Virus record (IMG/VR): IMGVR_UViG_3300048062_000147
Source of the DNA: a virus
Strand: one strand, 5' to 3'
Length of the DNA stretch: 53,442 bases
The notes below the pieces were generated by a model that had not been told where the DNA came from, ran no database searches, and worked only from the letters and a program-made list of their open reading frames with translations. How positions within the stretch are numbered: the stretch's first letter is position 1; every line of letters begins with the position of its first letter. Position numbers and translations under genes: made by a program. Of the stretch, positions 15,433 to 40,200 are shown piece by piece.

Positions 15433-16143
15433 TTATTTCTTTAAGGCTGCCTTCACAGCCATCTGTGCTACACGAGAAACGCCTGAGAAAAAATCTTCGT
15501 CCATAACGTCGCTAACCTTATCCGCTTGGTCGTCATCTTCGTCGTTAGCTTGGTCGTCACCTTCATAGTAATCGCTCTCCATAAAAGACGCTGTGGAATC
15601 TTCAAACAGATCGTAGTCTGTGGACGCACCACCTGCGTGGTGGTACTTACCCCAGAAGTCTTTAGCGGTGATGTCGCCGCTGGCATACTTGCCGAGGTCT
15701 GCACTAGGATGCTGCAGGTACTTTCCAATAAACAATACCTTCTGCTGTTCAGCTGTTAGTTTAGAAGCGTCTAGTGTTTTTTGCTTGTAGGCTTCTTCTA
15801 GCCAATCAGGAATAGGTATGTTATTATCCTTGAGCTCTCTGTAGGTTCTATTCACTGAAGTTATGCCGTCGGCTTTCTCACCAGCCTCAAACATAAACAG
15901 CCCCTTGCCTACACCTTGAGGTACTAAGTTCCCCTCGGCATCTTCTATCAATTGTACAGCACTAGATTTCATACGCTGACGTGGACCTGTTTCGTGATAT
16001 GCGATGATATCCATTAGCTGTTCGTACTGCTGGGGTGTTCCACCTTTCTTAGAGATCAGGTGATTCATCATAGCATCGTACCCACTACCATTATTCTTTT
16101 TGGTCTTGATAGGATTGTTGTTTGCCTTCTTCTTTATTATCAT
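15433..16143 (-). CDS. Lytic transglycosylase (SLT/lysozyme-like) protein, probably virion-associated
   Basis: I place the start at ATG 16143 (MIIKKK...). It has a catalytic-Glu context IAYHETG followed by GVGKGLFMFE, as in SLT-family murein hydrolases. It is the first gene of the late arm. Confidence 0.55.
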   Translation of the reverse strand: MIIKKKANNNPIKTKKNNGSGYDAMMNHLISKKGGTPQQYEQLMDIIAYHETGPRQRMKSSAVQLIEDAEGNLVPQGVGKGLFMFEAGEKADGITSVNRTYRELKDNNIPIPDWLEEAYKQKTLDASKLTAEQQKVLFIGKYLQHPSADLGKYASGDITAKDFWGKYHHAGGASTDYDLFEDSTASFMESDYYEGDDQANDEDDDQADKVSDVMDEDFFSGVSRVAQMAVKAALKK

Positions 16144-16147
16144 AGTG

Positions 16148-16155
16148 CAAAGGTA
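16148..16155 (-). promoter_or_regulatory. -7 box TACCTTTG, only 4 nt from ATG (TTTGCACTATG module)
   Basis: Perfect TAnnTTTG. The same 11-mer TTTGCACTATG recurs at 45241-45251 ahead of gene 44284..45243. Confidence 0.4.
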
Positions 16156-16170
16156 CAGAATTGAACACAT

Positions 16171-17296
16171 ATATAGAGAGAGGTGTAAATAGCTGTTATA
16201 TTGTTAGGCTTGCCTAAACTAGAAGGAATGGAAGGTTTAGTTTGAGCTAAACCTTCTGTAACCCCCGTAAATATTAATTTGACTTTCTCCGAAAAAAGTT
16301 GTAACTTCGCTCTAGATTCCTCACGCAATCAGGATTCTTTCCACTTGAATCCTTCTTGCTTTATCTAATTACTCACCCTGTAGCTGGAGGGTCGTCGCCC
16401 CAAGCAGAGACCCGCTCAGCTACTTTGTGAGAGCGGCAAGAACTATCCCTACAGTAAACACCCCCAGATCCTGTCAGTTCGCACAGCTTTGAGTAGCTGT
16501 TTGCTCCTGCCAGTATCCTCCTTTCTCCTGCACGAAAACCTCCCCCGACTGGCTTGATCCTACTTAACAGCTTTATGTCCATTCAAAATCGCTCTAAACA
16601 GCTCATATACCCGTTAAAAAAGGGATGAGTAATGTTTAGGTGGGGGATAATATATAGTATAGGACGTTGGCGCACGCAATCCGAAGTGGAATCTGAAACC
16701 CCACCCCCTACAGATAAAGCATTGATTGTCAAAACTTTTAGCGTTTGCTATCTACAGTACTGGTTCAGCTATAGCTATGTAACTATCTGGCTTTCAGTCG
16801 GTTAGCTGATCCGGTGGAACAGACTAGTTGCCGGAGGTGTTCTGTCCATAGGTGGAACAATCCCCACCCCACCATACACCTCAACCCAACACACTCTCAC
16901 ACGCTCACACATCCACGCTCCTGCCGTTTCTCAGGGCTGATGGATACCAACCTTGGGGCAGTCCCTCACGTGCGCATAGGTCATACTATGGCAAGATTTA
17001 GATGCCTAGGTATTTACACTCAATTGTGAAAAAAAGTGTGTATAACCCTTGTGTAATCCAAATAGCTGTCGTACCATTGTAGTGTTGAAAGGGACAAAGC
17101 GCCGTAACGCTGACTCCGACTAGTTAGGTCTAGTGACGTTCTTTACTTATTGGATACTAAGTTATAATCAGTCTGATGAGGGGTAGCAATCTACTACCCT
17201 GAGTGCTTCGGCACTCGACCCCTGAGATGGGGCGAAACCACGGGATATGGGGAGCATATCAACTAATAACAGCGGAAGCGCTTCGGTGCTTCCGTT
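16171..17296 (+). ncRNA. Candidate large structured non-coding RNA / non-coding control region between the diverging arms
   Basis: About 1.15 kb without a credible ORF. By hand count, G+C is 100/180 at 16381-16560, against 18/60 in early gene sequence at 18361-18420. There are many local hairpins, including 16231-16256 (10 bp), 16331-16353, 16412-16436, 16481-16504, 16602-16629, 17180-17200, 17201-17216 (UUCG loop), 17219-17232, 17244-17260 and 17274-17293 (UUCG loop with a G-U pair valid only on the plus strand). The strand and the boundaries are inferred. Confidence 0.45.
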
Positions 17297-17313
17297 GGTT
17301 ACTGATAACTTAA
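17158..17313 (+). ncRNA. Hammerhead-ribozyme-like element (type I topology); predicted cleavage between U17300 and A17301
   Basis: Core C3-A9 is CTGATGA at 17173-17179, and G12-A14 is GAA at 17234-17236. Helix I pairs 17158-17172 with 17301-17312 (5+7 bp with a 3-nt bulge). Helix III pairs A17237-C-C-A17240 with T17296-G-G-T17299, including the A15.1-U16.1 pair. H17 is U17300. Helix II is non-canonical: a single G17180-C17233 pair closes a junction of three hairpins. Confidence 0.4.
17274..17313 (+). promoter_or_regulatory. Hairpin + 17-mer cassette 1
   Basis: Hairpin GGAAGCGC-UUCG-GUGCUUCC at 17274-17293, then a 3-nt spacer, then GGTTACTGATAACTTAA at 17297-17313. ATG 17326 is 12 nt downstream. 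No U-tract. Confidence 0.9.
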
Positions 17314-17325
17314 ATTATATGTCTT

Positions 17326-17529
17326 ATGAAGAATCCACTAGTAGATGTCAAGCCATTCGTATTCCGAGGTGATGTAATCGGAAAGGTATTCACCTTCGAT
17401 TTGGGCAACTACCTGAACTACGGAGTCATTGAGATAACCACCGACTTGAGCGGTGATATTGTAGATTACTCAGGTTGTGGTTACAACACGGCAAATACTC
17501 TGATTCGATGTGTGCATCTAACAGATTAG
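17326..17529 (+). CDS. Early small protein, unknown function
   Basis: 67-aa ORF between cassettes 1 and 2. Confidence 0.6.
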   Translation: MKNPLVDVKPFVFRGDVIGKVFTFDLGNYLNYGVIEITTDLSGDIVDYSGCGYNTANTLIRCVHLTD

Positions 17530-17540
17530 AATAGATTAAA

Positions 17541-17574
17541 GAAGGGCAACGCCCTTCGGTCACTGATAACTTAA
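17541..17574 (+). promoter_or_regulatory. Hairpin + 17-mer cassette 2 (C variant)
   Basis: Hairpin GAAGGGC-AAC-GCCCTTC at 17541-17557, abutting GGTCACTGATAACTTAA at 17558-17574. ATG 17587 is 12 nt downstream. Confidence 0.9.
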
Positions 17575-17586
17575 TACTATTGCTTT

Positions 17587-17757
17587 ATGACAACGCAACA
17601 AATCACCCCGAAACAAGCTAACGAATTACTCGATTGCATCCGTAGAGACCTCGACACCCTCATTGGATTGGGTGAGAGCTACGCACACTTTCAATCTGCT
17701 CAGGCTACCCACAAGTACCTGAAGAAAGCAAAGAAAGCCCTTGAGGGACTTTCTTGA
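17587..17757 (+). CDS. Early small protein (56 aa, below the ORF-track cutoff)
   Basis: MTTQQITPKQANELLDCIRRDLDTLIGLGESYAHFQSAQATHKYLKKAKKALEGLS. It fills the space between cassettes 2 and 3 exactly, with the standard 12-nt spacing. Confidence 0.6.
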   Translation: MTTQQITPKQANELLDCIRRDLDTLIGLGESYAHFQSAQATHKYLKKAKKALEGLS

Positions 17758-17766
17758 TTGACCCAA

Positions 17767-17798
17767 GCCTCCGATGGAGGCGGTTACTGATAACTTAA
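17767..17798 (+). promoter_or_regulatory. Hairpin + 17-mer cassette 3
   Basis: GCCTCC-GAT-GGAGGC at 17767-17781, abutting GGTTACTGATAACTTAA at 17782-17798. ATG 17811 is 12 nt downstream. Confidence 0.9.
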
Positions 17799-17810
17799 AA
17801 CTATTGCCTT

Positions 17811-18008
17811 ATGAACGCAAAAGAATTAATTGAGCAACTCACTCATCTAGCAAAGTCTAATGGTGTAGCACTAGAGAACATTGATGTTTACTACCGATTT
17901 GATTTTGATTCCGATATCGAAGATGTTAATTTCTTGTTCGAAGATTTATACGACCAAGAGACAAACAGCGTACTAGAAACCATAGTACTGACAACTAAAT
18001 CGGAATAA
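17811..18008 (+). CDS. Early small acidic protein
   Basis: 65-aa ORF, D/E-rich. Confidence 0.6.
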   Translation: MNAKELIEQLTHLAKSNGVALENIDVYYRFDFDSDIEDVNFLFEDLYDQETNSVLETIVLTTKSE

Positions 18009-18015
18009 CGATTAA

Positions 18016-18048
18016 GCCTCCTTCGGGAGGCGGTTACTGATAACTTAA
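18016..18048 (+). promoter_or_regulatory. Hairpin + 17-mer cassette 4
   Basis: GCCTCC-TTCG-GGAGGC at 18016-18031, abutting the 17-mer at 18032-18048. ATG 18060 is 11 nt downstream. Confidence 0.9.
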
Positions 18049-18059
18049 ACAAACGAATT

Positions 18060-18305
18060 ATGGACAACGTAAAAGAGCAATTGCTGTCAATGGAGATTGG
18101 TATCTACCAAGAAATCACATTCAGCAATGGTATACTTAAATCCACAAAAGAATTGTGCCGTATCGCAGAAGGCGAATGGGTAGTAGAATCTCATAGCTGT
18201 GGATGGTCTACAGCCTATATGAATCTAGATACAGCCGTAGCTTACCTAGAGGGAAAAATCAAGGGATACGAACTAAGATGGGAGGACAACGAAATCATCC
18301 TATAA
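18060..18305 (+). CDS. Early small protein
   Basis: 81-aa ORF. Confidence 0.6.
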   Translation: MDNVKEQLLSMEIGIYQEITFSNGILKSTKELCRIAEGEWVVESHSCGWSTAYMNLDTAVAYLEGKIKGYELRWEDNEIIL

Positions 18306-18310
18306 ACTAA

Positions 18311-18344
18311 GAGGTGCAATGCACCTCGGTCACTGATAACTTAA
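18311..18344 (+). promoter_or_regulatory. Hairpin + 17-mer cassette 5 (C variant)
   Basis: GAGGTGC-AAT-GCACCTC at 18311-18327, abutting GGTCACTGATAACTTAA at 18328-18344. ATG 18356 is 11 nt downstream. Confidence 0.9.
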
Positions 18345-18355
18345 TTAAATGCTTT

Positions 18356-18604
18356 ATGAAAAATCATTTCGAAGAAATTAAATTTCACATCTTACTTGCT
18401 GAATACACTTCAACGAGGATTGAAGAAATGTCTGCAAATCGGATATTCAATTCAGGTAAAGAAGAGGGTGAGGACTTTGAATTTATTTACTCTTTACAAG
18501 ATAACTACTTTGATAGAGTAATGAGATTGAGTGTAGGTCAATCTATGCCCTTTCTAACTAGCAGAGATGCATCTTGGTACTCTGTAATTGTTAGGGTAAA
18601 ATAA
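18356..18604 (+). CDS. Early small protein
   Basis: I moved the start to ATG 18356 (MKNHFEEIKF...). The track start at 18314 (GTG) would translate the cassette itself. Confidence 0.6.
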   Translation: MKNHFEEIKFHILLAEYTSTRIEEMSANRIFNSGKEEGEDFEFIYSLQDNYFDRVMRLSVGQSMPFLTSRDASWYSVIVRVK

Positions 18605-18614
18605 CAAGATTCAA

Positions 18615-18648
18615 GAAGGGCAACGCCCTTCGGTTACTGATAACTTAA
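18615..18648 (+). promoter_or_regulatory. Hairpin + 17-mer cassette 6
   Basis: GAAGGGC-AAC-GCCCTTC at 18615-18631, abutting the 17-mer at 18632-18648. ATG 18660 is 11 nt downstream. Confidence 0.9.
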
Positions 18649-18659
18649 AACCTTTTACA

Positions 18660-18854
18660 ATGGAAAAGCTAACAAACGAAATCATCGAACGCCTAGAATA
18701 CGTAGATGGAGATGGCGTTGAATTCGAGGTGTACCAAGATCCCGAAACCAACAAATTCTACCAAGTAGAGATTGAGATTGTGAGACACTTTGAATGTGCT
18801 GAAGAGGTGAGTGGGAACTCCTTTATTGATTTGGACAAGCTCATCGATTTTTAA
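18660..18854 (+). CDS. Early small acidic protein
   Basis: 64-aa ORF. Confidence 0.6.
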   Translation: MEKLTNEIIERLEYVDGDGVEFEVYQDPETNKFYQVEIEIVRHFECAEEVSGNSFIDLDKLIDF

Positions 18855-18861
18855 TGAGCAA

Positions 18862-18894
18862 CCCTCCTGATGGAGGGGGTTACTGATAACTTAA
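18862..18894 (+). promoter_or_regulatory. Hairpin + 17-mer cassette 7
   Basis: CCCTCC-TGAT-GGAGGG at 18862-18877, abutting the 17-mer at 18878-18894. ATG 18906 is 11 nt downstream. Confidence 0.9.
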
Positions 18895-18905
18895 ACAAAT
18901 GTATT

Positions 18906-19205
18906 ATGATGATTAATGCTAATGAGACTATGGTCTTTAACGATGTATTGATACACACAGCTAGAACTTGGGAGCGTATAAGGGTAGACCGAGAACATAA
19001 AGAAATGCCTTACGACAATATCGAGTCTTGCGACTGTATCGTATCTGTTGCTGGAGATATTTTTGAGTCCGAGCTGATTCAAAAGTTTCTAAAGTCTACT
19101 GCGAGAGAGCGTAGAGGATTTTGGGAAAGAGAAACCAAGGAAGGTTTCTCGGATGACTACATTGAGAACCTTGCACACGATAAGATATGCAATGACTACT
19201 TGTGA
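18906..19205 (+). CDS. Early small protein
   Basis: I moved the start to ATG 18906 (MMINANE...), which is in frame with the track ORF. Confidence 0.6.
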   Translation: MMINANETMVFNDVLIHTARTWERIRVDREHKEMPYDNIESCDCIVSVAGDIFESELIQKFLKSTARERRGFWERETKEGFSDDYIENLAHDKICNDYL

Positions 19206-19209
19206 TTAA

Positions 19210-19243
19210 GAGAGGCTAAGCCTCTCGGTTACTGATAACTTAA
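19210..19243 (+). promoter_or_regulatory. Hairpin + 17-mer cassette 8
   Basis: GAGAGGC-TAA-GCCTCTC at 19210-19226, abutting the 17-mer at 19227-19243. ATG 19256 is 12 nt downstream. Confidence 0.9.
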
Positions 19244-19255
19244 TTTTATTGAACT

Positions 19256-19477
19256 ATGCTTTACGCAATGTACTACCAACTAGGAAATACCATAACGTAC
19301 ATTATCTCAGGAGATAATTACGAGGACACCTACTACTACGAAATCGATGCCAACATCGATGATTGCAAGGTCATTGTATCGCCTTTCGATTGTGATGATT
19401 CACCACGATTTAGAGACTACATCAAGCACCTGATTGAACGTGCAACGCCAACCAGATTTCAAGTGGTGTACGAATAG
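19256..19477 (+). CDS. Early small protein
   Basis: 73-aa ORF. Confidence 0.6.
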   Translation: MLYAMYYQLGNTITYIISGDNYEDTYYYEIDANIDDCKVIVSPFDCDDSPRFRDYIKHLIERATPTRFQVVYE

Positions 19478-19482
19478 CAAAA

Positions 19483-19515
19483 GCCACCTTCGGGTGGCGG
19501 TTACTGATAACTTAA
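19483..19515 (+). promoter_or_regulatory. Hairpin + 17-mer cassette 9
   Basis: GCCACC-TTCG-GGTGGC at 19483-19498, abutting the 17-mer at 19499-19515. ATG 19526 is 10 nt downstream. Confidence 0.9.
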
Positions 19516-19525
19516 ATTGATGACT

Positions 19526-19894
19526 ATGAAAACTTTATTAGCTGTTATTGTAGCGCTGACCTTTGGGTCTTGCGCTCCAAATGTCTACGGAGATTTATAC
19601 GAGGTTACCAGCGTGGTAACTAAGCCGAACGAAGGACCTATCGAGGTCTACTCATCTACTAGAGATTTTGTCCGCACCGATATCAAAATGACCAACGACA
19701 GCATCTTCCTTATGGAGGCTGTAGGTCAGGACAACAAATTGGTGGTGACTCAATCATTCGATTACTTGAGTGTAGTGGACTTCAAAGAGGGCAATAATGA
19801 AGAAGGTGAGCCATTCGAACTCTCACTAATTAATGCCGACTCAACGTGTGTTACTACGTACTTGTTGTACGACTTGAATAACCACTACGAGTAG
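19526..19894 (+). CDS. Early lipoprotein candidate
   Basis: I place the start at ATG 19526 (MKTLLAVIVALTFGSCAPN...): a signal peptide with Cys at position 17. Confidence 0.55.
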   Translation: MKTLLAVIVALTFGSCAPNVYGDLYEVTSVVTKPNEGPIEVYSSTRDFVRTDIKMTNDSIFLMEAVGQDNKLVVTQSFDYLSVVDFKEGNNEEGEPFELSLINADSTCVTTYLLYDLNNHYE

Positions 19895-19900
19895 TCTAAG

Positions 19901-19934
19901 AGGGGCTGTTGCCCCTTGGTTACTGATAACTTAA
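19901..19934 (+). promoter_or_regulatory. Hairpin + 17-mer cassette 10
   Basis: AGGGGC-TGTT-GCCCCT at 19901-19916, then a 1-nt spacer and the 17-mer at 19918-19934. ATG 19946 is 11 nt downstream. Confidence 0.9.
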
Positions 19935-19945
19935 TTAAACGTATT

Positions 19946-20212
19946 ATGGACTACCCATTCAAAGAGGGTGATACTTACTTCACCCTAGAAGGAATAACCT
20001 TCGAAGAGCTTCAGCTGTTAAACAGCAATGGAGAGAACCCACAAATCTTCACAGTGGTAGAGAGCACTTGGGACTTCGTGAGCGAAGAGATGCACGATGA
20101 AGACCCAAACAAAGTGTACTTCAAAACACGTGAAGAGGCAGAATCTCGCAACATCACATTTGATGAACTTGCAGAGGCTGTTGAGGCTAGTGCTAAAAAA
20201 ATCCCTCGTTGA
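19946..20212 (+). CDS. Early small acidic protein
   Basis: I moved the start to ATG 19946 (MDYPFKEGD...). The stop codon lies inside the hairpin of cassette 11. Confidence 0.6.
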   Translation: MDYPFKEGDTYFTLEGITFEELQLLNSNGENPQIFTVVESTWDFVSEEMHDEDPNKVYFKTREEAESRNITFDELAEAVEASAKKIPR

Positions 20213-20234
20213 GGGATGGTTACTGATAACTTAA
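20201..20234 (+). promoter_or_regulatory. Hairpin + 17-mer cassette 11
   Basis: ATCCCTC-GTT-GAGGGAT at 20201-20217, abutting the 17-mer at 20218-20234. ATG 20246 is 11 nt downstream. Confidence 0.9.
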
Positions 20235-20245
20235 ACAAATGTATT

Positions 20246-20407
20246 ATGACTGCGAATGATTTTGCATCTATCTGCGCCAACGCTGAGGTATCTGCGTTTG
20301 TGGCGCTAGAGAACAAACGTGTTGTTGAGCTCCTGAAGAAGGACAAGAAGCAACCATCAATTAATAACCAACTAATCCTTTCTGGATTGTTACAAACAGA
20401 ATTTTGA
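20246..20407 (+). CDS. Early small protein (53 aa)
   Basis: I moved the start to ATG 20246 (MTANDFASICANAEV...). Confidence 0.55.
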   Translation: MTANDFASICANAEVSAFVALENKRVVELLKKDKKQPSINNQLILSGLLQTEF

Positions 20408-20408
20408 T

Positions 20409-20762
20409 ATGAACAAAGTAGATTTTATACAGCTGTTACAAGCGCACGACTGGACCTACCAGTACAGCGATGACCCCAGCAAGTACAAACGAGGTCAGGC
20501 TCAACGTGAAGCCATCAACAAGGCTAGAAAGGAGCTTGGCGTAGAGGGTGATGCCCTCTACGAAACCTACAGCAAAGTACCTGAGGCTAGAATCGTTATC
20601 CCGGTGAAAGCCGAACGCACTATGCCCAAGGTAATGTGCCGTAACACTGGTCGTATGGGGCACTTAATCGATAAGAGTCCGAACGGATTTATGGAGGTTA
20701 AATTCAGCGACGGATACCGCACGGAATTCCTACGCCAGACCGACATCATCAAGCTAGGCTAA
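20409..20762 (+). CDS. Early protein, unknown function
   Basis: 117-aa ORF that starts 1 nt after the upstream stop. It has no cassette of its own. Confidence 0.6.
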   Translation: MNKVDFIQLLQAHDWTYQYSDDPSKYKRGQAQREAINKARKELGVEGDALYETYSKVPEARIVIPVKAERTMPKVMCRNTGRMGHLIDKSPNGFMEVKFSDGYRTEFLRQTDIIKLG

Positions 20763-20786
20763 GTCTAGCGGTTACTGATAACTTAA
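20753..20786 (+). promoter_or_regulatory. Hairpin + 17-mer cassette 12 (weak hairpin)
   Basis: GCTAG-N7-CTAGC at 20753-20769, abutting the 17-mer at 20770-20786. ATG 20798 is 11 nt downstream. Confidence 0.85.
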
Positions 20787-20797
20787 ATTAATGTTTT

Positions 20798-21094
20798 ATG
20801 ACAAAAGACACAATGACCATTTTTTATGAGATTGAAAGAGAGGTTAAGCCTTTCTTTGACCAGGCAAGAATCAACCTATATGGTGATGTAGCAAAGACAT
20901 CGTTAAAAGGAACACAGCGAGATGAATACATCTTTGATGGGTATGTGGAGTATTTTAAATCAATACCCAAAGATAAAGTTGGGAAACGAACCTATGTATT
21001 TGGCAAGGTGATTAAGTATGGTAGGATTCTCAGCAAAAAGCATAACCATCCATACAATGTATTCGAGATGTGCAACCTTGTGACTAAGGAGTAA
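20798..21094 (+). CDS. Early protein, unknown function
   Basis: 98-aa ORF. Confidence 0.6.
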   Translation: MTKDTMTIFYEIEREVKPFFDQARINLYGDVAKTSLKGTQRDEYIFDGYVEYFKSIPKDKVGKRTYVFGKVIKYGRILSKKHNHPYNVFEMCNLVTKE

Positions 21095-21106
21095 AAACTA
21101 AACAAA

Positions 21107-21140
21107 GCCCCTCGCTGAGGGGCGGTTACTGATAACTTAA
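21107..21140 (+). promoter_or_regulatory. Hairpin + 17-mer cassette 13
   Basis: GCCCCTC-GCT-GAGGGGC at 21107-21123, abutting the 17-mer at 21124-21140. ATG 21153 is 12 nt downstream. Confidence 0.9.
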
Positions 21141-21152
21141 ATTTATAATCTT

Positions 21153-21620
21153 ATGGGATTAGATATGTACTTGCACAAGAAAACATTTGTGCGTAATTGG
21201 GACCATATGAAAGAGTCCGAAAGAAATCACGTGTCCGTAAAGGGTGCTGAATCAAAACACATCGTAGGCGCTAGAGTATCGGAGATTACCGAGCAAATAG
21301 CCTATTGGAGAAAGGCAAACCACATACACAATTGGTTTGTTGAGAACGTTCAGAATGGCGAAGATGACTGCGGTGAATACTACCTCACCGAAGAGCACGT
21401 TAAGTCGCTTAACAAAGCTTGTAAGAAGGTCTTGGATGACAATTCTTTAGCTGAAGAGCTGTTACCTACAGCTAGTGGTTTCTTCTTTGGGGGCGTAGAG
21501 TACGACGAGTACTACTTTGAATCAGTGTTAGACACTTGGAATATAACAAGTGCCTTGATTCGGGAGATGAAAAGTTGGAATAGCGTTAGAACTGACCTTT
21601 CTTACCAAGCTTCTTGGTAG
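21153..21620 (+). CDS. Conserved-looking phage protein (MGLDMYL...YWRKANHIHNWF motif), unknown function
   Basis: 155-aa ORF. Confidence 0.65.
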   Translation: MGLDMYLHKKTFVRNWDHMKESERNHVSVKGAESKHIVGARVSEITEQIAYWRKANHIHNWFVENVQNGEDDCGEYYLTEEHVKSLNKACKKVLDDNSLAEELLPTASGFFFGGVEYDEYYFESVLDTWNITSALIREMKSWNSVRTDLSYQASW

Positions 21621-21629
21621 AAAATTAAG

Positions 21630-21662
21630 GAGGGCATTGCCCTCTGGTTACTGATAACTTAA
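21630..21662 (+). promoter_or_regulatory. Hairpin + 17-mer cassette 14 (last copy)
   Basis: GAGGGC-ATT-GCCCTC at 21630-21644, then a 1-nt spacer and the 17-mer at 21646-21662. ATG 21673 is 10 nt downstream. Confidence 0.9.
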
Positions 21663-34046: not shown

Positions 34047-34271
34047 TTATTTTTGTTTAGCAAATTTTTCTAATCCAGAAACACCTAATGATCCAAGGGT
34101 CACTATAACAAAGCTGTTATATGTAAACTCGTTGATGTGTAGGTCTTTCCCAAACGCACCAGTGATCACATCGGCAAGCATCACTAGTACCATTACAGCA
34201 AAGGAGAGAAAACCTATAATGGTTTTCTCGTTCCAATTGTTGTCGTCCTTAAATATATCTGTGAACTTCAT
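34047..34271 (-). CDS. Holin candidate
   Basis: 74 aa with two TM helices and a charged C-terminus, immediately upstream of the endolysin. Confidence 0.6.
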   Translation of the reverse strand: MKFTDIFKDDNNWNEKTIIGFLSFAVMVLVMLADVITGAFGKDLHINEFTYNSFVIVTLGSLGVSGLEKFAKQK

Positions 34272-37200
34272 TATATATCTTCAATCTTTAGCTGTATGTA
34301 TTGCTTGTTGAAATCGGCAACCAATTTGTATCTAGCCTTTTCAAGCTGGTCCAGTCTAGCTTCTTGCTTTAGTGGATCCTTGATGCCTGCCGCCTCGTCC
34401 TCAAGCTTACTAATTTTTTTCAAACGAGATTTGTAATCCTTACCCATCTTATGCATTTTATATATCTTCTTGGCATCTGCCCCTTCGATTATGCCTGCCT
34501 TTACTTCCTTGAACTTTTGGTTAACATCAACAGTTCTTTCATAGAAGCTGTTTATATTTGAATACTCGTATGGCTGTCCGTTGAAGGTACGTACAAAAGG
34601 AATCTGTCTAGATTCTAGCTCGTCCCAGTTACCAGTCAAAATCTTATCTATAACATTTGCAGATCTTGTCACAAACTTACCCGCACCACCAGTAATAGTT
34701 TCAACTACAAAATCAGCCTTATCTGGATTTACATCTATGTATCCTGATCTATACGCAGACCCTCCAGTAACTTCGTTCAACCATTTAGCGATTGACTGTG
34801 TCCATCTGTAACCACTTTCTTTTCCTAATTGAGACTCCGGCTTTGGTGCAGGGTCGTATATGAAATTCTCGTTATATATCTTCTGTCCAAAATAATCTTC
34901 GTTAAGACCTATAGCCACTGGGATCTGAGTAGCAGTAGGCAAAATAAATTTAATAAAGAATGAAGAAGCATCTTTACTGGTAGGAAAGTTAATCGGGGAG
35001 AAAGAACCTATCGCAGTCTGCCCTATTGCCGATGCTACTTCTCCCGGAGTCTTAGTTCCATTCAATCCTTCAGATATGTAAGAACCTGCTACATAGAATA
35101 CGTTCGACCCATATGGCAAAGGTATCTTCCAATAGTCCTTGCCGTTAGGCTTCATAATGATTATGTTTCTTTCTTTTTCGAATTCCGGTATCTTAGAGAA
35201 GAAAGATTCTTCATCCTCATCTTCATCGCTCATCCATTCATTGAATACCGACATAACACCGCCCATAACAAACAAACCTACAGCCATCTTCTGCGCTCTG
35301 GTAAGGTGATACTTTCTATTCCCCTCGCTGTCTATTTTGTATGCAGGCTTTAAGCTACGTAACAATCTAGAGCTACCCTGAACAGAGGCATTGAAGAACA
35401 GATATAGGGTGTTACCCATCTGTCCTAATGAACCAGTTTTGTTAAAGTTAACTGTCAAGTTCTTTCCGAGCTCGGCGGCTTTGGCTCTAGGGGTGCCAGC
35501 CTTCCGAGCATTGACATATGCTGATAAACGAACTGCATTCTCTACAGAAGAGTTTACACGCTCAACTAAGTTAGCTGCAGCTTTGATTGCATTATCTCCT
35601 TTACCTCTTATCAACTTCTCAATGTCCTTGTTTATTTGATCTGCAGGCTTACTATAGAACCATTCAGTCTTAGCGCCGTCCTCCAAGAACTCCTTGTAGT
35701 ACTGATCCATATCCTTGTTTCTGGAGGCTTCCTTCTTGCCAGTCCATCCACCCTCAACAGCGAATATAGTTTTAAGTGCAGGGTACACATCTTTAACTGT
35801 CTTGCCTACAATGTTCTTATCTTTTATAAGTCCATCGTCTAGATCCTGTTCAGCATACAAGTTCAATACAGCTGTCTGAATATCTCTAGAGAAGTTACGG
35901 AATACGAAATCAGGATCGTATGTGGTAATCAAGCTACTAAGCATTCTGTTGAACCCACCTATATATTTAGTGAACCATTCAGCCTTAACTACATTAGCTC
36001 CTCTAAGAACATTAGCTAGATCAGCATCCTTAAATCTGACAAACTTGTAGTCACCATCAATACGGACAGATACCATACTCTCGTCAAGAAGATAATCGGA
36101 AACAGATTTAGCAACTGCTATCACCTTACCATCACGCATTGAGGTCTTATAATCTTTAGACGTTTCTGGATCTACAATTTCGTAAATATCTTTGTTCGGG
36201 TTGTTCTTAGCGAGTTCATAGAACCTTTTCATAACGTCGTTCTTAGCACCTCTAATAATTGTAGTGGTGTTAGAGATGATAGCCTGAGTCAAAGGAGAGT
36301 CTGCTTTTCTTTGACGTCCCTTAGCTCTTCTCTCTCTGGCACGTACCTCTAGTTTGCCACCGCCTTCAATAAACTCTGAGCCGAACTGCTCATCTGCGAA
36401 ACCTCTAAGCGGTACGTAGTTTTTATACGTAGCGTTAAATGCATCTATAGTGCCCTGAGATTCTAGACCAGACTCAACCAATCTATTTCTAGTATCTGCT
36501 ATCAACTCTCTGATAGCTGTTACTGCTGTGCGAATCTTCGGAGACAGCTGAGACACATCTGGAGATGTTAGATTGAGATCGTACTTAGCCAATATCTTTC
36601 TAGCTTCTACATCAGTCATACCAGAACCATCCTTCACTAACGCATTGTCATAGAAGAATCTGTAAGGTGTTGATCCATAGATCAATAGAAGGTCAGTCAA
36701 GTCAGACGACTTCAGATCTCTCTTGTTGGCTTCAATCTCTAGGTACTGTTCTTTAGAGATGCCTAGTAGCTGAGCGACATCTGTCGGTGTCATACCGCTT
36801 GTCTTTCTCATTCTAGATAAGTTCTTGCCAATATCTGTAGAGATAGTGCGAAGATATCTGTTTCGCTCCTGAGCGTGCATAGCATACAGCAACTCGTTAA
36901 CATCGTCTACTGACAGACCAGACTTCTTGATCTTGCTAGTGATGTCTTTTATTCTGTCTTCTGTTTTGTCTAGCTCGCTCTTAGCTTTACCGTGCATCAA
37001 TACTTCCGCATTACGGAAGTCTTGGTCTAGACCAACAGGCTTACCTGTAGCGTACTCAATATCTTCTTGGATGACAATGATGTCTCTGTAGCTGTCTTGT
37101 ATTCTACGTCTAGTAAGATCTACGAAACGCTCAAAAGCATTTCTTTCTCTTGACTTCCAAGTATCTGAGGCGGCAACATCTTGATCCACCTTATTGTCTA

Positions 37201-40200
37201 TCTGAGATCTAAACACACCTTCTTTATTGTCCTCAATGGCAGAGTATGTTTCCTTAGCGTTCTCTTCTTGTTTTACTTGGTCTTCAATCTGGAATCGTAC
37301 CGTTTCCCCCTTAGAGTTCTTGTACTCCTGAAGCTCCATAGGTTCAACCTTAGCTACCTTTGGAATAGCTCCAGCACTTGACGTAACATTAGATACAGCA
37401 AATTTAGGATCGGCTTTAGTGGATACCTCTGGACCAGACATATTGTACTTAGTGTACTCGTTAGTCAGGTCATAAGACTTGTAGTATTTGTTTGGCTGTA
37501 AGATACTTTTGATTACAGCTTTAACAGTCCATCCGAATGATGGGTGGTGATCTGGATCTCCCGGCTTAGTCTTAGATACCTCAAAGGTATTAGGATCAAA
37601 CTCTACAAAGCTCATAATCTCACCACCTTCAACACCTTGATTAAGAGGGTCTGCAATAAGATTGTAGAACTGATTCAAGTTCTTAATACCGATAGCATTT
37701 TGGAATTCTTTACTCGCAGCGATCTTCTGGTTAAGAGCTTTACGTAAGTTAGGAGAATAGTTGTTCTCAGCGTCAAGAAGCTCCACTAGTTTCATAGGGT
37801 TCTTCTTAAACGAGTTTAGATTTTTAAGTCTAGAGTTATTCTTTTCGTTGAACGCCTTGAATGCTTTGGAACCTTCTTTAGACTTGATGGCTTCGTTGAA
37901 CACTTCCATCAATCTAGCTTTGCTCATAATCTTGTTATCAAGCACTGCCTTTACCAGCTCCTCAAAGATATGGTGCTGGAACTGCCAAGAATCTGTCAAG
38001 GTTCCTGAGTGTGGGGCAAACAGATCAGCATTACCTTCTTTGGCGTTTCTGATAAACCCTTCTGCCTGTGACTTAGAGTTGAACGCAGCTAGGTTGGAAA
38101 CCTCGCCGAGTTCTTTACCATTGCGCTCAAGCATTAGGGGCACATAGTTTCTACCACCCAACAGCTCAATAGAAATACCATTACCTAGTTCGGTTGTACC
38201 CGCACTAGTATAATCATACATATTGGTAACGAAGTTTCTACCTTCTAGCTCATTGATGTCTATGTCAGTAACAAACTTGTTGACGAATCCTCTAGCGTCA
38301 TCAGACGCTTTAGGAGCGTCGATGACCTCTATCTGTTCTTTAGGTATGGAAATAGTGCCTACCTCTCCAGATTCGCCCTGCTCTTCAATCTGAATTTCCT
38401 TCTCTTGTAGGTATGGGTTTGCAACAAACTCATCAGGCAACAAGCCTACTTTCTGAGGGGCAAATTTCATTGTAGCGTAAGCCTTGTCTGTAAACTCCTG
38501 TGCCTCTTCAAGCTTCCCTTCCTTACGAAGGGCTCTACCTTTGTCTCTGAGTTTAAATGCTTCGTCGTTAACTCCAGAGAAGTTTACATAGCTGTTCTGA
38601 CCTCTAGTCTCAGCTGTCAATGCTTTACGTGCTAGTGGGCTGTACATTCTAGAGTGTACATCCCAGGCGTTCTCCTCTCCGATAGGACCGAAACCGTTAC
38701 CTCTCTCTGCGTGTCCAAAGAAGTCGTGTACAAATCTAAAGACATCATTTAATAATAGTGTTCGACCATTTACATCTTTGTATTTTGTCTCTGCTAGAAG
38801 CGGGTTGTCTTTTCTTTGATCAGCTGTGATGCCTGCATCACCGAACCCTGAGTCTGTACTGAAGATTCGCATATTCTTGTTCTTGCGAAGATCTTCGATC
38901 AACTCATTACTGTTGTTGTACGGCTCGTTATTATTTACCTCTACTTTGTATCCACCCTTAATAATAGCCTCGTACTGCTCTATAGTTTCATCAGCCATAG
39001 CCTTATATGCAGCAGCAACCTCTGGACTGGTAGGGTTGTTCTTCATCGCTGTATAGGCGTCAGAGATCCTTTTTGCGAGCTTTTTGTCAATCTTTCTAAT
39101 CAGATTACCATCTGTGTGTTTGAGCCCCTTAGACTCCATATAAGCGATAGCTATAGTGCGTGCATCCTTGAGTGGTTCATTGGCTATTCTAGAACCTACC
39201 GGAACGTCTAACTGTAACCTAGAAGCCTCATAAGGATTCTTGCTGTTCACAACAGCTGCTGCCTCTGGGTTTATCTCAACTGTTAGCTCGGTACGTCCTT
39301 CAAGTGCATCTAAGAATCCATTGACAAAGTCAAACGCTTCCTCCTTAGACTTAATAGCTGTGTCGTCTATCTTGAGTCCTAGTACATCGTTAAGTATTCT
39401 AACAACAGCTTTTCTGATTCGCTCAATAGTTGACAGAGACATCTTCTGTACATCAATGCCGTCCTTGACCTCTGCAACAAACTCAGCTAAGAACTCCTCG
39501 GCAATCACTGCATCCTCAAGAGTTAGACCCTTGCCGTACACCTCTCTGTTGAGGTATTCTTTTTGGAAAGCTGTTAGCTTATTGGCTAACGCTTTCTCTA
39601 CCTTGGTACCTTTACTCAATTGTAATCTCACCTCATTAGTGAATCGCACAATCTGTTTTGAGTTTAGATCAACAGCTTTAACATAAGCGTGCATCATCTC
39701 GTGAGACAAGCTGCCTAGGCTAGCTTTGTCTGCATTTACTACTACAGCAGATGTGCCATCCTCAAGTGTTCTGAATTGAGCTCTTGACGAAGACCCTGTA
39801 ACGTTCTGCATATCAGCATCGCTAACTACATATACATTTACAGGAGCAGCACCAATAGACGATAACGCACTATTGAAACTCTCAATCATCTGTGGTGCCT
39901 TATCACTAAGATTGATAGCATCCACAGAAGCAGTTTCTAGCTGTTGTCTATCAGCGCTTGGTTCTTCAGCGACAGCTGCTTCTTCCACTGCAGCCTGATC
40001 AACCATTACTTCAACACCATATGTTTTCTTGCCTCTTCTACCAGTTGTTTCGGTAGATAATACAAGTAGGCTTGGATCCTCCACAGACAATCTTTCCTGA
40101 AGGGCTTCCACTGCTGCCATTGCCTCTTCTTCTGTGGCGTAGGTCATTTCCTCTTCAGGGAATATTCTTCGCCCTGTAGTAGGATCTTCTGCAACAGCTT

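What the first reader, a model, noticed from the sequence alone, without database searches (positions are those of the whole stretch)
16171..17296. A 1.15-kb ORF-free, G+C-enriched, hairpin-dense region at the divergence of the two arms (large ncRNA and/or origin)
Seen directly:
- The only ORFs here (16373-16582 minus strand; 16814-17029 plus strand) translate to G/R/S/C- or H/P/T-rich strings unlike any other protein in this genome.
- By hand count, G+C is 56% (100/180) at 16381-16560, against 30% (18/60) at 18361-18420.
- Many stable local hairpins are listed in the feature entry. They include C(UUCG)G-type loops and a 10-bp stem at 16231-16256.
- A long-range 7-bp G/C helix is possible between GGTGGGG (16639-16645) and CCCCACC (16699-16705), with a second possible partner at 16862-16868.
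- GGTGGAACA is directly repeated (about 16814 and about 16851).

Established: elevated G+C in an A+T-rich genome is a classic signature of structured RNA. Phages are known to carry very large ornate ncRNAs of unknown function, such as the GOLLD and ROOL classes.

Inference: a plus-strand transcript that ends at, or is cut near, the first cassette. The region's position between the diverging arms would equally suit a replication origin.
Basis: partly seen in the sequence, partly recalled or inferred. Interest (0 to 1): 0.8.

Follow-up and report, generated by a model that had tools for sequence, protein, structure and literature searches.

The report
Phage hammerhead ribozyme with fourteen target sites
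The gene-free kilobase is the non-coding start of this marine phage's early transcript and ends in an unusual hammerhead ribozyme. The ribozyme's two guide arms match its own cut site and 13 further sites between the early genes, so one ribozyme may cut the whole operon into single-gene messages.

Summary
Window 16171-17296 is non-coding, locally G+C-rich and full of hairpins. It is not GOLLD or ROOL: Rfam gives no match.

From left to right it holds:
- Two copies of a DNA palindrome.
- A conserved Bacteroidota-type promoter: TTG at 16279-16281 and a -7 box TAACTTCG at 16302-16309.
- A leader of about 990 nt that is conserved across a family of uncultured marine crAss-related phages, probably of Flavobacteriia.
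- A type-I hammerhead ribozyme variant at 17159-17311.

All core hammerhead nucleotides are invariant in 31 distinct versions. Five hairpins covary. Stem II carries a two-hairpin insertion that is also found in complete type-III hammerheads of gut Firmicutes.

The predicted cut is U17300|A17301, the first "cassette". Thirteen more sites have the form hairpin-GGUY|ACUGAUAACUU and match both ribozyme arms. In relatives, all 206 such sites lie downstream of the ribozyme and none upstream. No canonical promoter sits at any cassette.

I infer that one ribozyme processes the early operon at many sites. I put self-cleavage at about 0.8 and multi-site cleavage at about 0.5. There are no RNA data. A replication origin in the middle of the leader cannot be excluded.

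The parts
16148..16155 (-). Perfect Bacteroidota sigma-A -7 box (TACCTTTG) for the left arm. It places the transcription start on the A of ATG 16143.
   Evidence: (motif scan) and the sequence. Box position -12 to -5 is taken from PMC9723704.
16204..16217 (.). Palindrome 1 (TTAGGC TT GCCTAA), an operator-like DNA site.
   Evidence: Conserved as TTTAGGCTTGCCTAAA in distant relatives.
16231..16256 (.). It is a second copy of the same inverted repeat, 33 bp from the first.
   Evidence: Both palindromes are replaced by a GIY-YIG endonuclease gene in L001, L005 and L057.
16279..16309 (+). Early promoter: -33 TTG (within TTGACT), a spacer of fixed length, and the -7 box TAACTTCG at 16302-16309. Predicted start is about A16314.
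   Evidence: TTGAC and GTAACTT are invariant in 18 sequences, and the spacer varies in sequence but has no indels. Several relatives have the perfect box TAACTTTG. This is the only intergenic TAnnTTYG box on the plus strand between 15900 and 22200.
16314..17300 (+). Predicted non-coding leader RNA of about 987 nt, released by ribozyme cleavage.
   Evidence: Non-coding. Conservation is equal to or higher than in the flanking gene. Folding z-score -4.2. The two ends are inferred from the promoter and the ribozyme; no RNA data exist.
16325..16423 (+). Two leader hairpins just after the predicted start (16325-16359 and 16380-16423).
   Evidence: RNAalifold on 9 diverse sequences: 33 pairs, 9 of them with compensatory changes.
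16619..16716 (.). Length-invariant conserved element of 98 nt: TGAGTWAT .. GGTGGGGGAT(TA)n .. alternating CG/CA tract .. CCGAA .. CCCCACCCCC.
   Evidence: 19 distinct versions, all with the same spacing. No RNA covariation. Homologues in most distant relatives. Function unknown; possibly a DNA-level signal.
16856..16925 (+). C-rich, G-poor tract (37 C and 3 G in 70 nt), following the invariant GAACAATCC.
   Evidence: It is the most extreme C>G 70-nt window of the whole 53 kb on either strand. Distant relatives have the same kind of tract. The rut-like reading is inference.
17119..17134 (+). Conserved hairpin upstream of the ribozyme (ACUAG UUAGGU CUAGU). It is part of a module of about 90 nt that travels with the ribozyme.
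   Evidence: 4 of 5 pairs covary. Alignment A2.
17159..17172 (+). Hammerhead stem I, 5' arm: AAGUU, a bulge AUA, then AUCAGU.
   Evidence: AAUCRGU is invariant in 43 sequences. It pairs with 17301-17311. The unconstrained minimum-energy fold recovers this pairing.
17173..17179 (+). Hammerhead core C3-A9 (CUGAUGA).
   Evidence: Invariant in all 43 (31 distinct) sequences.
17180..17233 (+). Expanded stem II domain. G10.1 (17180) pairs with C11.1 (17233). Inserted hairpins are Pa (17181-17199) and Pb (17201-17216). The canonical stem II hairpin is Pc (17219-17232).
   Evidence: Covariation in Pa 5/6 pairs, Pb 5/6 and Pc 1/4. Pc plus CGAAAC aligns to the stem II consensus of Rfam Hammerhead_3. The same insertion occurs in gut type-III hammerheads.
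17234..17240 (+). G12 A13 A14, then the stem III 5' strand ACCA (15.1-15.4).
   Evidence: GCGAAACCACG is invariant.
17244..17260 (+). Hairpin Pd with a purine-rich loop (GGGAG). It branches from the stem III junction.
   Evidence: 4 of 6 pairs covary.
17273..17294 (+). Hairpin Pe. It is the hairpin of the first, tethered substrate cassette. It is joined to Pd by a variable linker (17261-17272).
   Evidence: 6 of 9 pairs covary. The linker varies in sequence and length.
17296..17311 (+). Stem III 3' strand UGGU (17296-17299), H17 = U17300, predicted cleavage 17300|17301, and stem I 3' strand ACUGAU AACUU (17301-17311).
   Evidence: T.GGTYACTGATA is invariant. H17 is only U or C.
17541..21662 (+). 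Thirteen further substrate-like sites of the form hairpin-GGUY|ACUGAUAACUUAA. Predicted cuts are after 17561, 17785, 18035, 18331, 18635, 18881, 19230, 19502, 19921, 20221, 20773, 21127 and 21649.
   Evidence: Across all 14 sites (the ribozyme's own included), the hairpin abuts GGU, and the distance from cut to AUG is 24-25 nt in 12 of 14. The covariance model finds no second ribozyme in the window.

Best explanation
The region is the control region and non-coding leader of the phage's early (right-arm) operon.

**Proposed sequence of events**
1. Host sigma-A RNA polymerase starts at about A16314. The promoter is a Bacteroidota-type one: -33 TTG and -7 TAACTTCG.
2. The first 990 nt or so encode no protein.
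3. The leader ends in a type-I hammerhead ribozyme at 17159-17311. It has a full consensus core, a stem II expanded by two inserted hairpins, and a stem III closed by a three-way junction.
4. The ribozyme cuts between U17300 and A17301. This separates the leader from the first early mRNA.

**The catalytic strand and its substrates**
- The catalytic strand stays on the leader. It has two free recognition arms: AUCAGU (extended by AAGUU) for stem I, and ACC for stem III.
- The cis substrate is the first member of a set of 14 sites of the form "7-bp hairpin - GGUY | ACUGAUAACUU".
- In the 13 untethered sites the hairpin abuts GGU. It could therefore stack on a 3-bp stem III.

**What I infer**
The same ribozyme cuts these sites too. 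It would bind first through stem I and then displace its own 3' tail from stem III. The polycistronic early transcript would become monocistronic mRNAs. Each would have a 5'-OH end, a 24-25-nt leader, and a 3' hairpin ending in a 2',3'-cyclic phosphate.

**Shown versus inferred**
- Shown: the anatomy, the conservation, the covariation of the hairpins, the arm complementarity, and the site distribution.
- Inferred: transcription from this promoter, catalysis, and above all cleavage of the 13 distal sites.
For: **1. Core nucleotides.** CUGAUGA, G10.1/C11.1, GAA, A15.1/U16.1 and H17 = U or C are invariant in 43 sequences (31 distinct) from at least 45 contigs.

**2. Structure.** 95.1% of cells are paired, against 29-41% for slid controls. 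Twenty-five pairs carry compensatory changes.

**3. Link to known hammerheads.**
- The same core with the same two-hairpin stem II domain occurs in complete type-III hammerheads. These have a GUC site, a 5-bp stem I hairpin and their own stem III. They come from gut metagenomes and from Ruminococcus and Lachnospiraceae genomes.
- They score 41.9 and 36.8 bits to Rfam RF00008.
- My covariance model of the marine form finds them at E down to 4e-9.

**4. Folding.**
- The minimum-energy fold of 17140-17330 recovers stem I and all hairpins.
- Cofolding with cassette 2 gives stem I in trans, at -7.6 kcal/mol.

**5. Site distribution in ribozyme-bearing loci.**
- Of 206 distinct motif sites, 0 lie upstream of the ribozyme and 206 downstream. 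All are on the sense strand.
- The most conserved positions are exactly the ribozyme-complementary ones: GGU 100%, and ACUGAUA 99-100%.
- H17 is U in 91%, C in 8%, A in 1% and G in 0%.

**6. Hairpin placement.** In 143 of 160 distal sites a hairpin of about 7 bp ends directly at GGU. At every first (tethered) site there is a 2-nt spacer instead.

**7. One ribozyme only.** The window has a single hit at 140.8 bits; the next best is 7.4 bits.

**8. No promoter at the cassettes.**
- No canonical TAnnTTYG box lies at any cassette.
- The only intergenic box on the right arm is the leader promoter.
- The cassette hairpins lack U-tracts.

**9. Non-coding leader.**

**10. Precedents.**
- Phage hammerheads are proposed to process long transcripts (PMC3088659).
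- Abundant early long non-coding RNAs come from long intergenic regions of the marine crAss-like phage phi14:2 (bioRxiv 10.1101/2020.03.07.982082).
Against: - Rfam does not call the element. Hammerhead_3 gives 12.3 bits against a gathering score of 48.5, and only over Pb-Pc-GAAAC.
- Stems I and III, which define the three-way junction, never vary in the marine group. One A-U to G.U change is the only exception. They therefore have no covariation support of their own.
- For distal sites, stem III would be only 3 bp, at -0.9 kcal/mol. It must also compete with the ribozyme's own tethered 3' tail.
- The motif contains TAACTT, the first six bases of the leader promoter's -7 box. It also keeps a fixed distance to the AUG. 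A role in transcription or translation is therefore not excluded.
- One contig (L102) carries two full ribozymes 1.17 kb apart. That would be unnecessary if one copy served all sites.
- No transcript or RNA-end evidence could be obtained.
- The middle of the leader shows no RNA covariation.
- In three close relatives a homing endonuclease gene replaces the palindromes and the -33 element.
Confidence: 0.7

Rival explanations
1. The hammerhead cuts only in cis, at the first cassette. The 13 other copies of GGTYACTGATAACTTAA are not ribozyme substrates. They would serve another purpose for each gene, such as a weak internal promoter using TAACTT, a translation-initiation or leader signal, or a site for a protein RNase. 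The ribozyme arms would simply have adapted to the motif of the first gene.
For: - The motif shares TAACTT with the -7 box of the leader promoter.
- The distance from motif to AUG is fixed at 24-25 nt.
- Stem III in trans is only 3 bp.
- L102 has two ribozymes.
- No arm-motif covariation exists, because both are invariant.
Against: - The positions conserved best (GGUY-ACUGAUA) are the ribozyme-complementary ones. GGTYAC has no counterpart in the real promoter.
- The cassettes have TTAA where the box needs TTTG, and they have no -33 TTG.
- A hairpin that ends exactly at GGU in 89% of sites has no role in this model.
- Motif arrays are never found without a ribozyme, and never upstream of it.
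Confidence: 0.3
2. Part of the region is a DNA-level element such as the replication origin or another protein-bound site. The candidate is the length-invariant element at 16619-16716, with its (TA)n tract, alternating CG/CA tract and flanking GGTGGGG/CCCCACC inverted repeat. This function could be instead of, or in addition to, being transcribed.
For: - The cumulative GC skew has a local low here, where the arms diverge.
- The 98-nt element has fixed spacing in 19 distinct versions.
- The element has no RNA covariation: consensus energy -2.2 kcal/mol and no compensatory pair.
- The middle of the leader has 1 compensatory pair among 126 predicted.
Against: - The skew low equally follows from the switch in gene orientation.
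- I saw no iterons or DnaA-box-like repeats in the repeat scan.
- Close relatives are too similar for a lack of covariation to count against RNA structure.
- The element lies inside the transcribed leader, between a conserved promoter and the ribozyme.
Confidence: 0.2
3. The hammerhead-like element is a structured RNA that no longer cleaves. It would be a relic, or an RNA with another role such as protein binding or a 5'-UTR regulator.
For: - Stem II is reduced to one closing pair plus a four-way junction.
- The Rfam score is far below threshold.
- No activity data exist.
Against: - Every catalytic nucleotide is invariant across 31 distinct sequences, while the neighbouring helices change freely. 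That pattern indicates selection on the core.
- Published active hammerheads include stem II of 1-2 bp (PMC3088659).
Confidence: 0.1
4. The region encodes small proteins: 16373-16582 on the minus strand, or 16632-16805 or 16814-17029 on the plus strand.
For: ORFs of 57-71 aa exist.
Against: - Single-nucleotide indels, a lost start codon and an 11-nt insertion break them in relatives that are 86-97% identical.
- Alignments with distant relatives have many indels that are not multiples of three.
Confidence: 0.02

Closest known systems
Hammerhead ribozyme (Rfam clan CL00010: Hammerhead_1 RF00163 and Hammerhead_3 RF00008)
   Same: - Full consensus core: CUGAUGA, G10.1-C11.1, GAA, A15.1-U16.1, and H17 that is never G.
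- Three helices around the core.
- A stem II hairpin (CCCC UGAGAU GGGG) close to the Hammerhead_3 consensus.
   Different: - A 38-nt insertion (two covarying hairpins plus linkers) lies between 10.1 and 10.2.
- Stem III is closed by a three-way junction of about 55 nt.
- Rfam models do not detect it.
- Stem I is open, and its 3' strand is a motif repeated 14 times in the operon.
Multiple cis-acting hammerheads flanking genes in prophages (Perreault et al. 2011, PMC3088659)
   Same: Phage context. The proposed role is cutting long phage transcripts into mRNAs of operon or single-gene length.
   Different: There, every cut site has its own complete ribozyme. Here there is one catalytic core and 13 substrate-only sites.
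Discontinuous (split) hammerhead of mammalian Clec2 3'UTRs, and engineered Haseloff-Gerlach trans-cleaving hammerheads (named from my own knowledge; listed)
   Same: The enzyme strand and the substrate strand are separate segments. They are joined only by the stem I and stem III arms.
   Different: The Clec2 ribozyme has one substrate on the same transcript. Trans-cleaving, multiple-substrate hammerheads are so far laboratory designs.
RNase III processing of the phage T7 early polycistronic mRNA (my own knowledge)
   Same: Repeated hairpin-containing sites lie between early genes. Cutting yields monocistronic mRNAs that end in protective 3' hairpins.
   Different: T7 uses a host protein enzyme. 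Here the phage would supply its own RNA enzyme, which would give 5'-OH and cyclic-phosphate ends.
Early long non-coding RNAs of Cellulophaga crAss-like phage phi14:2 (bioRxiv 10.1101/2020.03.07.982082)
   Same: A marine Bacteroidota crAss-type phage with kilobase-long ORF-free intergenic regions in the early region. They are highly transcribed and their function is unknown.
   Different: There is no detectable sequence similarity, and no ribozyme hit in the first 12 kb of phi14:2.
GOLLD and ROOL large phage ncRNAs
   Same: Phage-borne, large and non-coding.
   Different: No Rfam match at any threshold tried. The region is a mosaic: promoter, short structured leader parts, an unstructured C-rich tract, and the ribozyme.

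Membership tests
Hammerhead ribozyme | Conserved core C3 U4 G5 A6 N7 G8 A9 and G12 A13 A14 | tested here: met
   CUGAUGA at 17173-17179 and GAA at 17234-17236. Both are invariant in 43 sequences.
Hammerhead ribozyme | Cleavage-site triplet N-U-H, with A15.1-U16.1 and H17 not G | tested here: met
   GGU-U|A at 17297-17301. H17 is U or C at first sites. At 171 distal sites it is U 91%, C 8%, A 1% and G 0%.
Hammerhead ribozyme | Stem II closed by the G10.1-C11.1 pair next to the core | tested here: met
   G17180-C17233 is invariant. The Pc helix next to it covaries (CCCC/GGGG to CUCC/GGAG). The 38-nt insertion (two hairpins plus linkers) is atypical.
Hammerhead ribozyme | Stems I and III supported as helices | tested here: inconclusive
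   - Complementarity is perfect: 6+5 bp and 4 bp.
- The minimum-energy fold recovers stem I.
- Both strands are invariant, so there is no covariation.
- Indirect support: the homologous gut form makes stems I and III from unrelated sequences.
Hammerhead ribozyme | Scores at or above the Rfam gathering threshold | tested here: not met
   12.3 bits against 48.5 for RF00008, and no hit to RF00163. The large insertions explain the failure. Gut relatives reach 41.9 bits.
Hammerhead ribozyme | Site-specific self-cleavage giving 2',3'-cyclic phosphate and 5'-OH ends | not testable with these tools
   Needs in-vitro transcription or RNA-end sequencing.
GOLLD / ROOL large ncRNAs | Match to the Rfam covariance models | tested here: not met
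   No match on either strand at gathering score (whole window) or at E<=10 (15900-17700).
Replication origin | Strand-skew switch, an A+T-rich unwinding element, and repeated initiator-binding sites | tested here: inconclusive
   A local low in cumulative GC skew lies near 16.5-17 kb, but it coincides with the switch in gene orientation. A (TA)n tract lies at 16646-16660. No iteron family was found.
Bacteroidota sigma-A promoter | -7 box TAnnTTTG at -12 to -5, with -33 TTG about 20 nt upstream | tested here: met
   TAACTTCG at 16302-16309, and the perfect box TAACTTTG in several relatives. TTG at 16279-16281 is 20 nt upstream. Both are invariant and the spacer length is fixed. The consensus is from PMC9723704. 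Promoter activity was not tested.

The most novel reading that the evidence does not exclude
This would be a natural, phage-encoded hammerhead that works as a true multiple-substrate enzyme.

- One catalytic RNA is released from the 5' leader by its own first cut.
- It recognises 13 further "hairpin-GGUY|ACUGAU" sites through two short guide arms.
- It thereby matures the whole early operon into single-gene mRNAs with 5'-OH ends and 3' hairpins.

That would be the first natural trans-acting (or long-range) hammerhead with many targets. It would be an RNA-only counterpart of RNase III processing in T7.
Probability: 0.5. Interest if true: 0.92.

Novelty: new variant of a known kind. Interest (0 to 1): 0.8.

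Why it matters
**For ribozyme biology**
- Natural small ribozymes are regarded as single-turnover, self-cutting elements. What most bacterial and phage hammerheads do is still an open question.
- This locus gives a concrete and testable function: maturation of an early operon.
- The architecture is one enzyme strand, one tethered substrate and 13 free substrates. It looks built for trans action, which so far is known only from laboratory designs.

**For detection**
- Current covariance models miss hammerheads with large stem II and stem III insertions.
- These include a marine group of at least 31 distinct sequences and a gut Firmicutes group that falls below the Rfam threshold.

**For phage biology**
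- The finding points to how SD-less Bacteroidota phages may make translatable mRNAs of about 300 nt with 24-25-nt leaders from one promoter.
- It also flags a conserved leader of 0.7-1 kb of unknown function in an abundant, uncultured group of marine phages.

Tried and rejected
- **Rfam.** Searched the whole window at gathering score and 15900-17700 at E<=10. Only chance hits appeared (mir-2756, cyano_het_sRNA, CRISPR-DR36, scr4677).
- **tRNA and tmRNA.** None.
- **GenBank phages.**
  - blastn with a 3-kb query and with the 181-nt ribozyme found no relative.
  - No cultured phage carries the element.
  - The first 12 kb of phi14:2 has no ribozyme hit.
- **E. coli-type sigma-70 scan.** It missed the promoter. 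I first read it as TTGACT-17-TAACTT, then re-read it as a Bacteroidota -33/-7 promoter.
- **A promoter just upstream of the ribozyme (TTGACA-like).** Rejected, because the spacing to any -10 varies by indels among relatives.
- **A type-III arrangement with an upstream cleavage site.** Rejected, because there is no U-H after the conserved UGG and no stem I hairpin.
- **Single-copy hits of the 17-mer in other viral contigs.** These are coding coincidences inside a 623-aa ORF, with no ribozyme.
- **Pseudoknot between the Pa loop (AUYYA) and the upstream (U)GGA.** It is compatible, since Y can always pair with G. There are only one-sided changes, so it remains a suggestion.
- **Contig ends at cleavage sites, as a proxy for RNA ends.** None found.
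- **Exact-protein look-up of the first cassette ORF.** It returned one DNA contig only.
- **Virion RNA polymerase in the 2908-aa ORF.** It has no DFDxD motif, no PDB sequence hit, and only LPD38 and HTH domains.
- **Function of the cassette ORFs.** No PHROG annotation.
- **RNA structure for 16619-16716 and for the middle of the leader.** No covariation.
Full report
**1. Context**

The window is a phage genome of about 53 kb.
- It encodes a terminase, a portal, a primase-helicase and a crAss-type muzzle protein.
- Its nearest cultured relatives by terminase are Flavobacterium and Cellulophaga podophages, at 42-47% amino-acid identity. A Bacteroidota host is therefore likely.
- It has no nucleotide match among GenBank phages.
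- Related uncultured contigs are common in IMG/VR and in aquatic metagenomes.

**2. Checking the observation**

- 16171-18059 is the longest stretch of the window with no ORF of at least 80 aa.
- The three short ORFs in the region are broken in relatives that are 86-97% identical. The causes are 1-nt indels, a lost ATG and an 11-nt insertion.
However, the genome is 42.5% G+C, and the region as a whole is 46.0%, in the top 8% of windows of the same size.
- The region folds better than shuffled sequence on both strands, with z-scores of -4.2 and -3.9.
- Rfam 15 finds nothing at gathering score in the window, and nothing meaningful at E<=10 in 15900-17700. GOLLD and ROOL are therefore excluded.

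**3. Left part: a promoter block**

Window 16204-16454 is conserved at about 72% in distant relatives.

It contains:
- Two copies of the palindrome TTTAGGC..GCCTAAA, at 16204-16217 and 16231-16256.
- An invariant TTGAC.
- A spacer that varies in sequence but never in length.
- An invariant GTAACTT(C/T)G.

This matches the Bacteroidota sigma-A promoter. That promoter has a -33 TTG and a -7 box TAnnTTTG at -12 to -5 (PMC9723704). It predicts a start at about A16314.

This is the only intergenic TAnnTTYG box on the plus strand between 15900 and 22200.

Just downstream, two hairpins (16325-16359 and 16380-16423) carry 9 compensatory pairs among 9 diverse sequences.

In three close relatives a GIY-YIG-like homing endonuclease gene replaces 16162-16291. 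That removes the palindromes and the -33 element, but the -7 box is kept.

**4. Middle part of the leader**

- nhmmer finds homologues of about 16620-17025 in most distant relatives. There they lie 2-3 kb upstream of the ribozyme, with small ORFs in between.
- A 98-nt element at 16619-16716 has identical spacing in 19 distinct versions.
- RNAalifold finds no conserved structure and no compensatory change in that element.
- The close relatives give only 1 compensatory pair over the whole middle region.
- This part is therefore conserved and non-coding, but it is not shown to be structured RNA. A DNA-level role, such as an origin or a protein-binding site, stays open.
- 16856-16925 has 37 C and 3 G in 70 nt. 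It is the most extreme C>G window in the 53 kb on either strand. The same kind of tract follows the invariant GAACAATCC in distant relatives.
- On an untranslated RNA that composition is what Rho-utilisation sites look like. This is my own knowledge and was not tested.

**5. Right end: a hammerhead ribozyme**

*How it was found.* Distant relatives share only 17120-17329 with the window, at 70-76% identity. Their alignment shows an invariant AAUCRGU-CUGAUGAG ... GCGAAACCACG ... U.GGUY-ACUGAUA. Between these blocks lie helices that change by compensation.

*More examples.* A pattern scan of metagenomes gave 58 loci. There are 31 distinct marine versions.

*Assignment, in hammerhead numbering.*

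| Element | Window coordinates | Pairing or note |
|---|---|---|
| Stem I | 17167-17172 / 17301-17306 | AUCAGU with ACUGAU |
| Stem I extension | 17159-17163 / 17307-17311 | AAGUU with AACUU, across a 3-nt bulge |
| Core C3-A9 | 17173-17179 | CUGAUGA |
| 10.1-11.1 | 17180 / 17233 | G with C |
| G12 A13 A14 | 17234-17236 | GAA |
| Stem III | 17237-17240 / 17296-17299 | ACCA with UGGU |
| H17 | 17300 | U; cleavage 17300\|17301 |

*Additions to the standard fold.*
- Two inserted hairpins, Pa and Pb, precede the canonical stem II hairpin Pc inside stem II.
- Stem III closes a junction that carries hairpins Pd and Pe.

*Covariation.*
- On the 43-sequence alignment, 95.1% of cells pair, against 29-41% for slid controls.
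- 25 pairs have compensatory changes: Pa 5/6, Pb 5/6, Pc 1/4, Pd 4/6, Pe 6/9, and the upstream hairpin 4/5.
- Stems I and III are invariant, so they are neither supported nor contradicted.

*Independent support.*
- The same core and two-hairpin stem II domain occur in complete type-III hammerheads. These have a GUC site, a 5-bp stem I hairpin and their own stem III.
- They come from human-gut metagenomes and from Ruminococcus and Lachnospiraceae genomes.
- Rfam Hammerhead_3 scores them at 41.9 and 36.8 bits, with a 45-47-nt insertion in stem II.
- My covariance model R1 of the marine form detects them at E down to 4e-9.

*Why Rfam misses the window element.* It scores 12.3 bits, and only over Pb-Pc-GAAAC. 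The insertions explain the miss.

*Folding.* An unconstrained minimum-energy fold of 17140-17330 recovers stem I and every hairpin.

**6. The cassettes as substrates**

*In the window.*
- There are 14 sites of the form hairpin-GGUY|ACUGAUAACUUAA.
- The first is the ribozyme's own 3' half. Pe is simply the hairpin of that first site, tethered by a variable linker.
- The window holds only one ribozyme: 140.8 bits, with the next hit at 7.4 bits.

*Across ribozyme-bearing loci.*
- 206 distinct motif sites were found. None lies upstream of the ribozyme and all lie downstream. This holds even where small plus-strand ORFs precede the ribozyme.
- The best-conserved positions are those complementary to the arms: GGU 100%, and ACUGAUA 99-100%. 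H17 is U 91%, C 8%, A 1% and G 0%.
- The bases after ACUGAUA are less conserved and tolerate insertions.
- In 143 of 160 distal sites a hairpin of about 7 bp (mean -10.7 kcal/mol) ends exactly at GGU. Every first site instead has a 2-nt spacer.
- That fits coaxial stacking of the substrate hairpin on a 3-bp stem III in the untethered complexes.

*Other features.*
- The hairpins have no U-tract.
- The cassettes have no -33 element, and TTAA where the -7 box needs TTTG.
- The distance from cut to AUG is 24-25 nt in 12 of 14 sites. That equals the median flavobacterial 5'UTR.
- Cofolding puts cassette 2 on the stem I arm at -7.6 kcal/mol. Stem III in trans contributes only -0.9 kcal/mol.

**7. 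Interpretation**

I propose that one promoter drives one long early transcript. The hammerhead removes the leader. The leader-borne catalytic strand then cuts the remaining 13 sites. It would bind through stem I and displace its own 3' tail from stem III.

The products would be monocistronic mRNAs with 5'-OH ends and hairpin/cyclic-phosphate 3' ends. That end chemistry follows from known hammerhead chemistry.

- Self-cleavage is inferred at about 0.8.
- Multi-site cleavage is inferred at about 0.5.

The main rival is that the motif serves transcription or translation, and that the ribozyme merely adapted to it. Three points favour that rival:
- The motif shares TAACTT with the -7 box.
- Stem III in trans is weak.
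- Contig L102 carries two ribozymes.

**8. Comparison with known systems**

- Perreault et al. 2011 proposed that several complete hammerheads flanking prophage genes process long transcripts. They also showed that stem II can be 1-2 bp (PMC3088659).
- I found no report of a natural hammerhead with separate multiple substrates, nor of hammerheads in flavobacterial phages. The searched library is incomplete.
- The marine crAss-like phage phi14:2 makes abundant early long non-coding RNAs from long intergenic regions. It has no detectable homologue of this ribozyme in its first 12 kb.

**9. Verdict**

The region is a non-coding plus-strand leader that is cut at the first cassette. It is not a GOLLD- or ROOL-type RNA, and the origin idea remains untested.

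The element is a new structural variant of the hammerhead. Its genomic arrangement suggests a new mode of use.

Noticed in passing
window 16856-16925: This is the most extreme C-rich, G-poor 70-nt window of the whole 53 kb (37 C, 3 G). It lies in the untranslated leader after the invariant GAACAATCC. Distant relatives have the same kind of tract. It resembles a Rho-utilisation site.
   Followed up: partly
window 16619-16716: A 98-nt element with identical spacing in 19 distinct versions. It reads TGAGTWAT, GGTGGGGGAT(TA)n, an alternating CG/CA tract, CCGAA, CCCCACCCCC. It shows no RNA covariation, so it may be a DNA-level signal such as a promoter or an origin.
   Followed up: partly
window 16515-16526: AUCCUCCUUUCU in the leader resembles the 3' end of 16S rRNA, the anti-Shine-Dalgarno region (CCUCCUUUCU). 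This comparison is from my own knowledge. The sequence is invariant in close relatives.
   Followed up: no
window 16141-16155 (minus strand): A perfect -7 box, TACCTTTG (16155 to 16148), places the transcription start on the A of ATG 16143. The first left-arm gene is therefore probably leaderless and starts at MIIKKK, not at the ATG at 16170.
   Followed up: partly
L057 10756-11262 (also L001 and L005): A 168-aa GIY-YIG-like homing endonuclease ORF replaces window 16162-16291 (the palindromes and the -33 element) in three close relatives. The -7 box is left intact.
   Followed up: partly
L102 437-500 and 1604-1667: One 2.7-kb metagenome contig carries two full ribozymes of different subtypes, 1167 nt apart. 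Each is followed by its own motif sites.
   Followed up: no
L066 5434-5709; also L107 (Ruminococcus MAG) and L109 (Lachnospiraceae): Complete type-III hammerheads in gut Firmicutes and their phages carry the same two-hairpin stem II insertion, often as tandem pairs about 190 nt apart. They score 37-42 bits, below the Rfam Hammerhead_3 gathering score of 48.5. Standard annotation therefore misses them.
   Followed up: partly
window 17005-17055; L078 11290-11323; relatives of the L011 type: A conserved module about 100-160 nt upstream of the ribozyme core travels with the ribozyme, including in the second copy on L102. It includes CCTAGGTATTTACACTCAAT and a doubled TGTGAAWAAAG motif. Its function is unknown.
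   Followed up: no
window 17151-17154 and 17190-17193: A pseudoknot is possible between the upstream (U)GGA and the Pa loop AUYYA. The two loop pyrimidines vary only as C or U, so they can always pair with G. This may be the tertiary contact that aligns stems I and II.
   Followed up: partly
window 34271-42997 and 45262-49893: The 1543-aa ORF matches the crAss muzzle protein. The 2908-aa ORF has LPD38 and HTH domains, but no DFDxD motif and no PDB sequence match. There is thus no evidence for a crAss-type virion RNA polymerase.
   Followed up: partly
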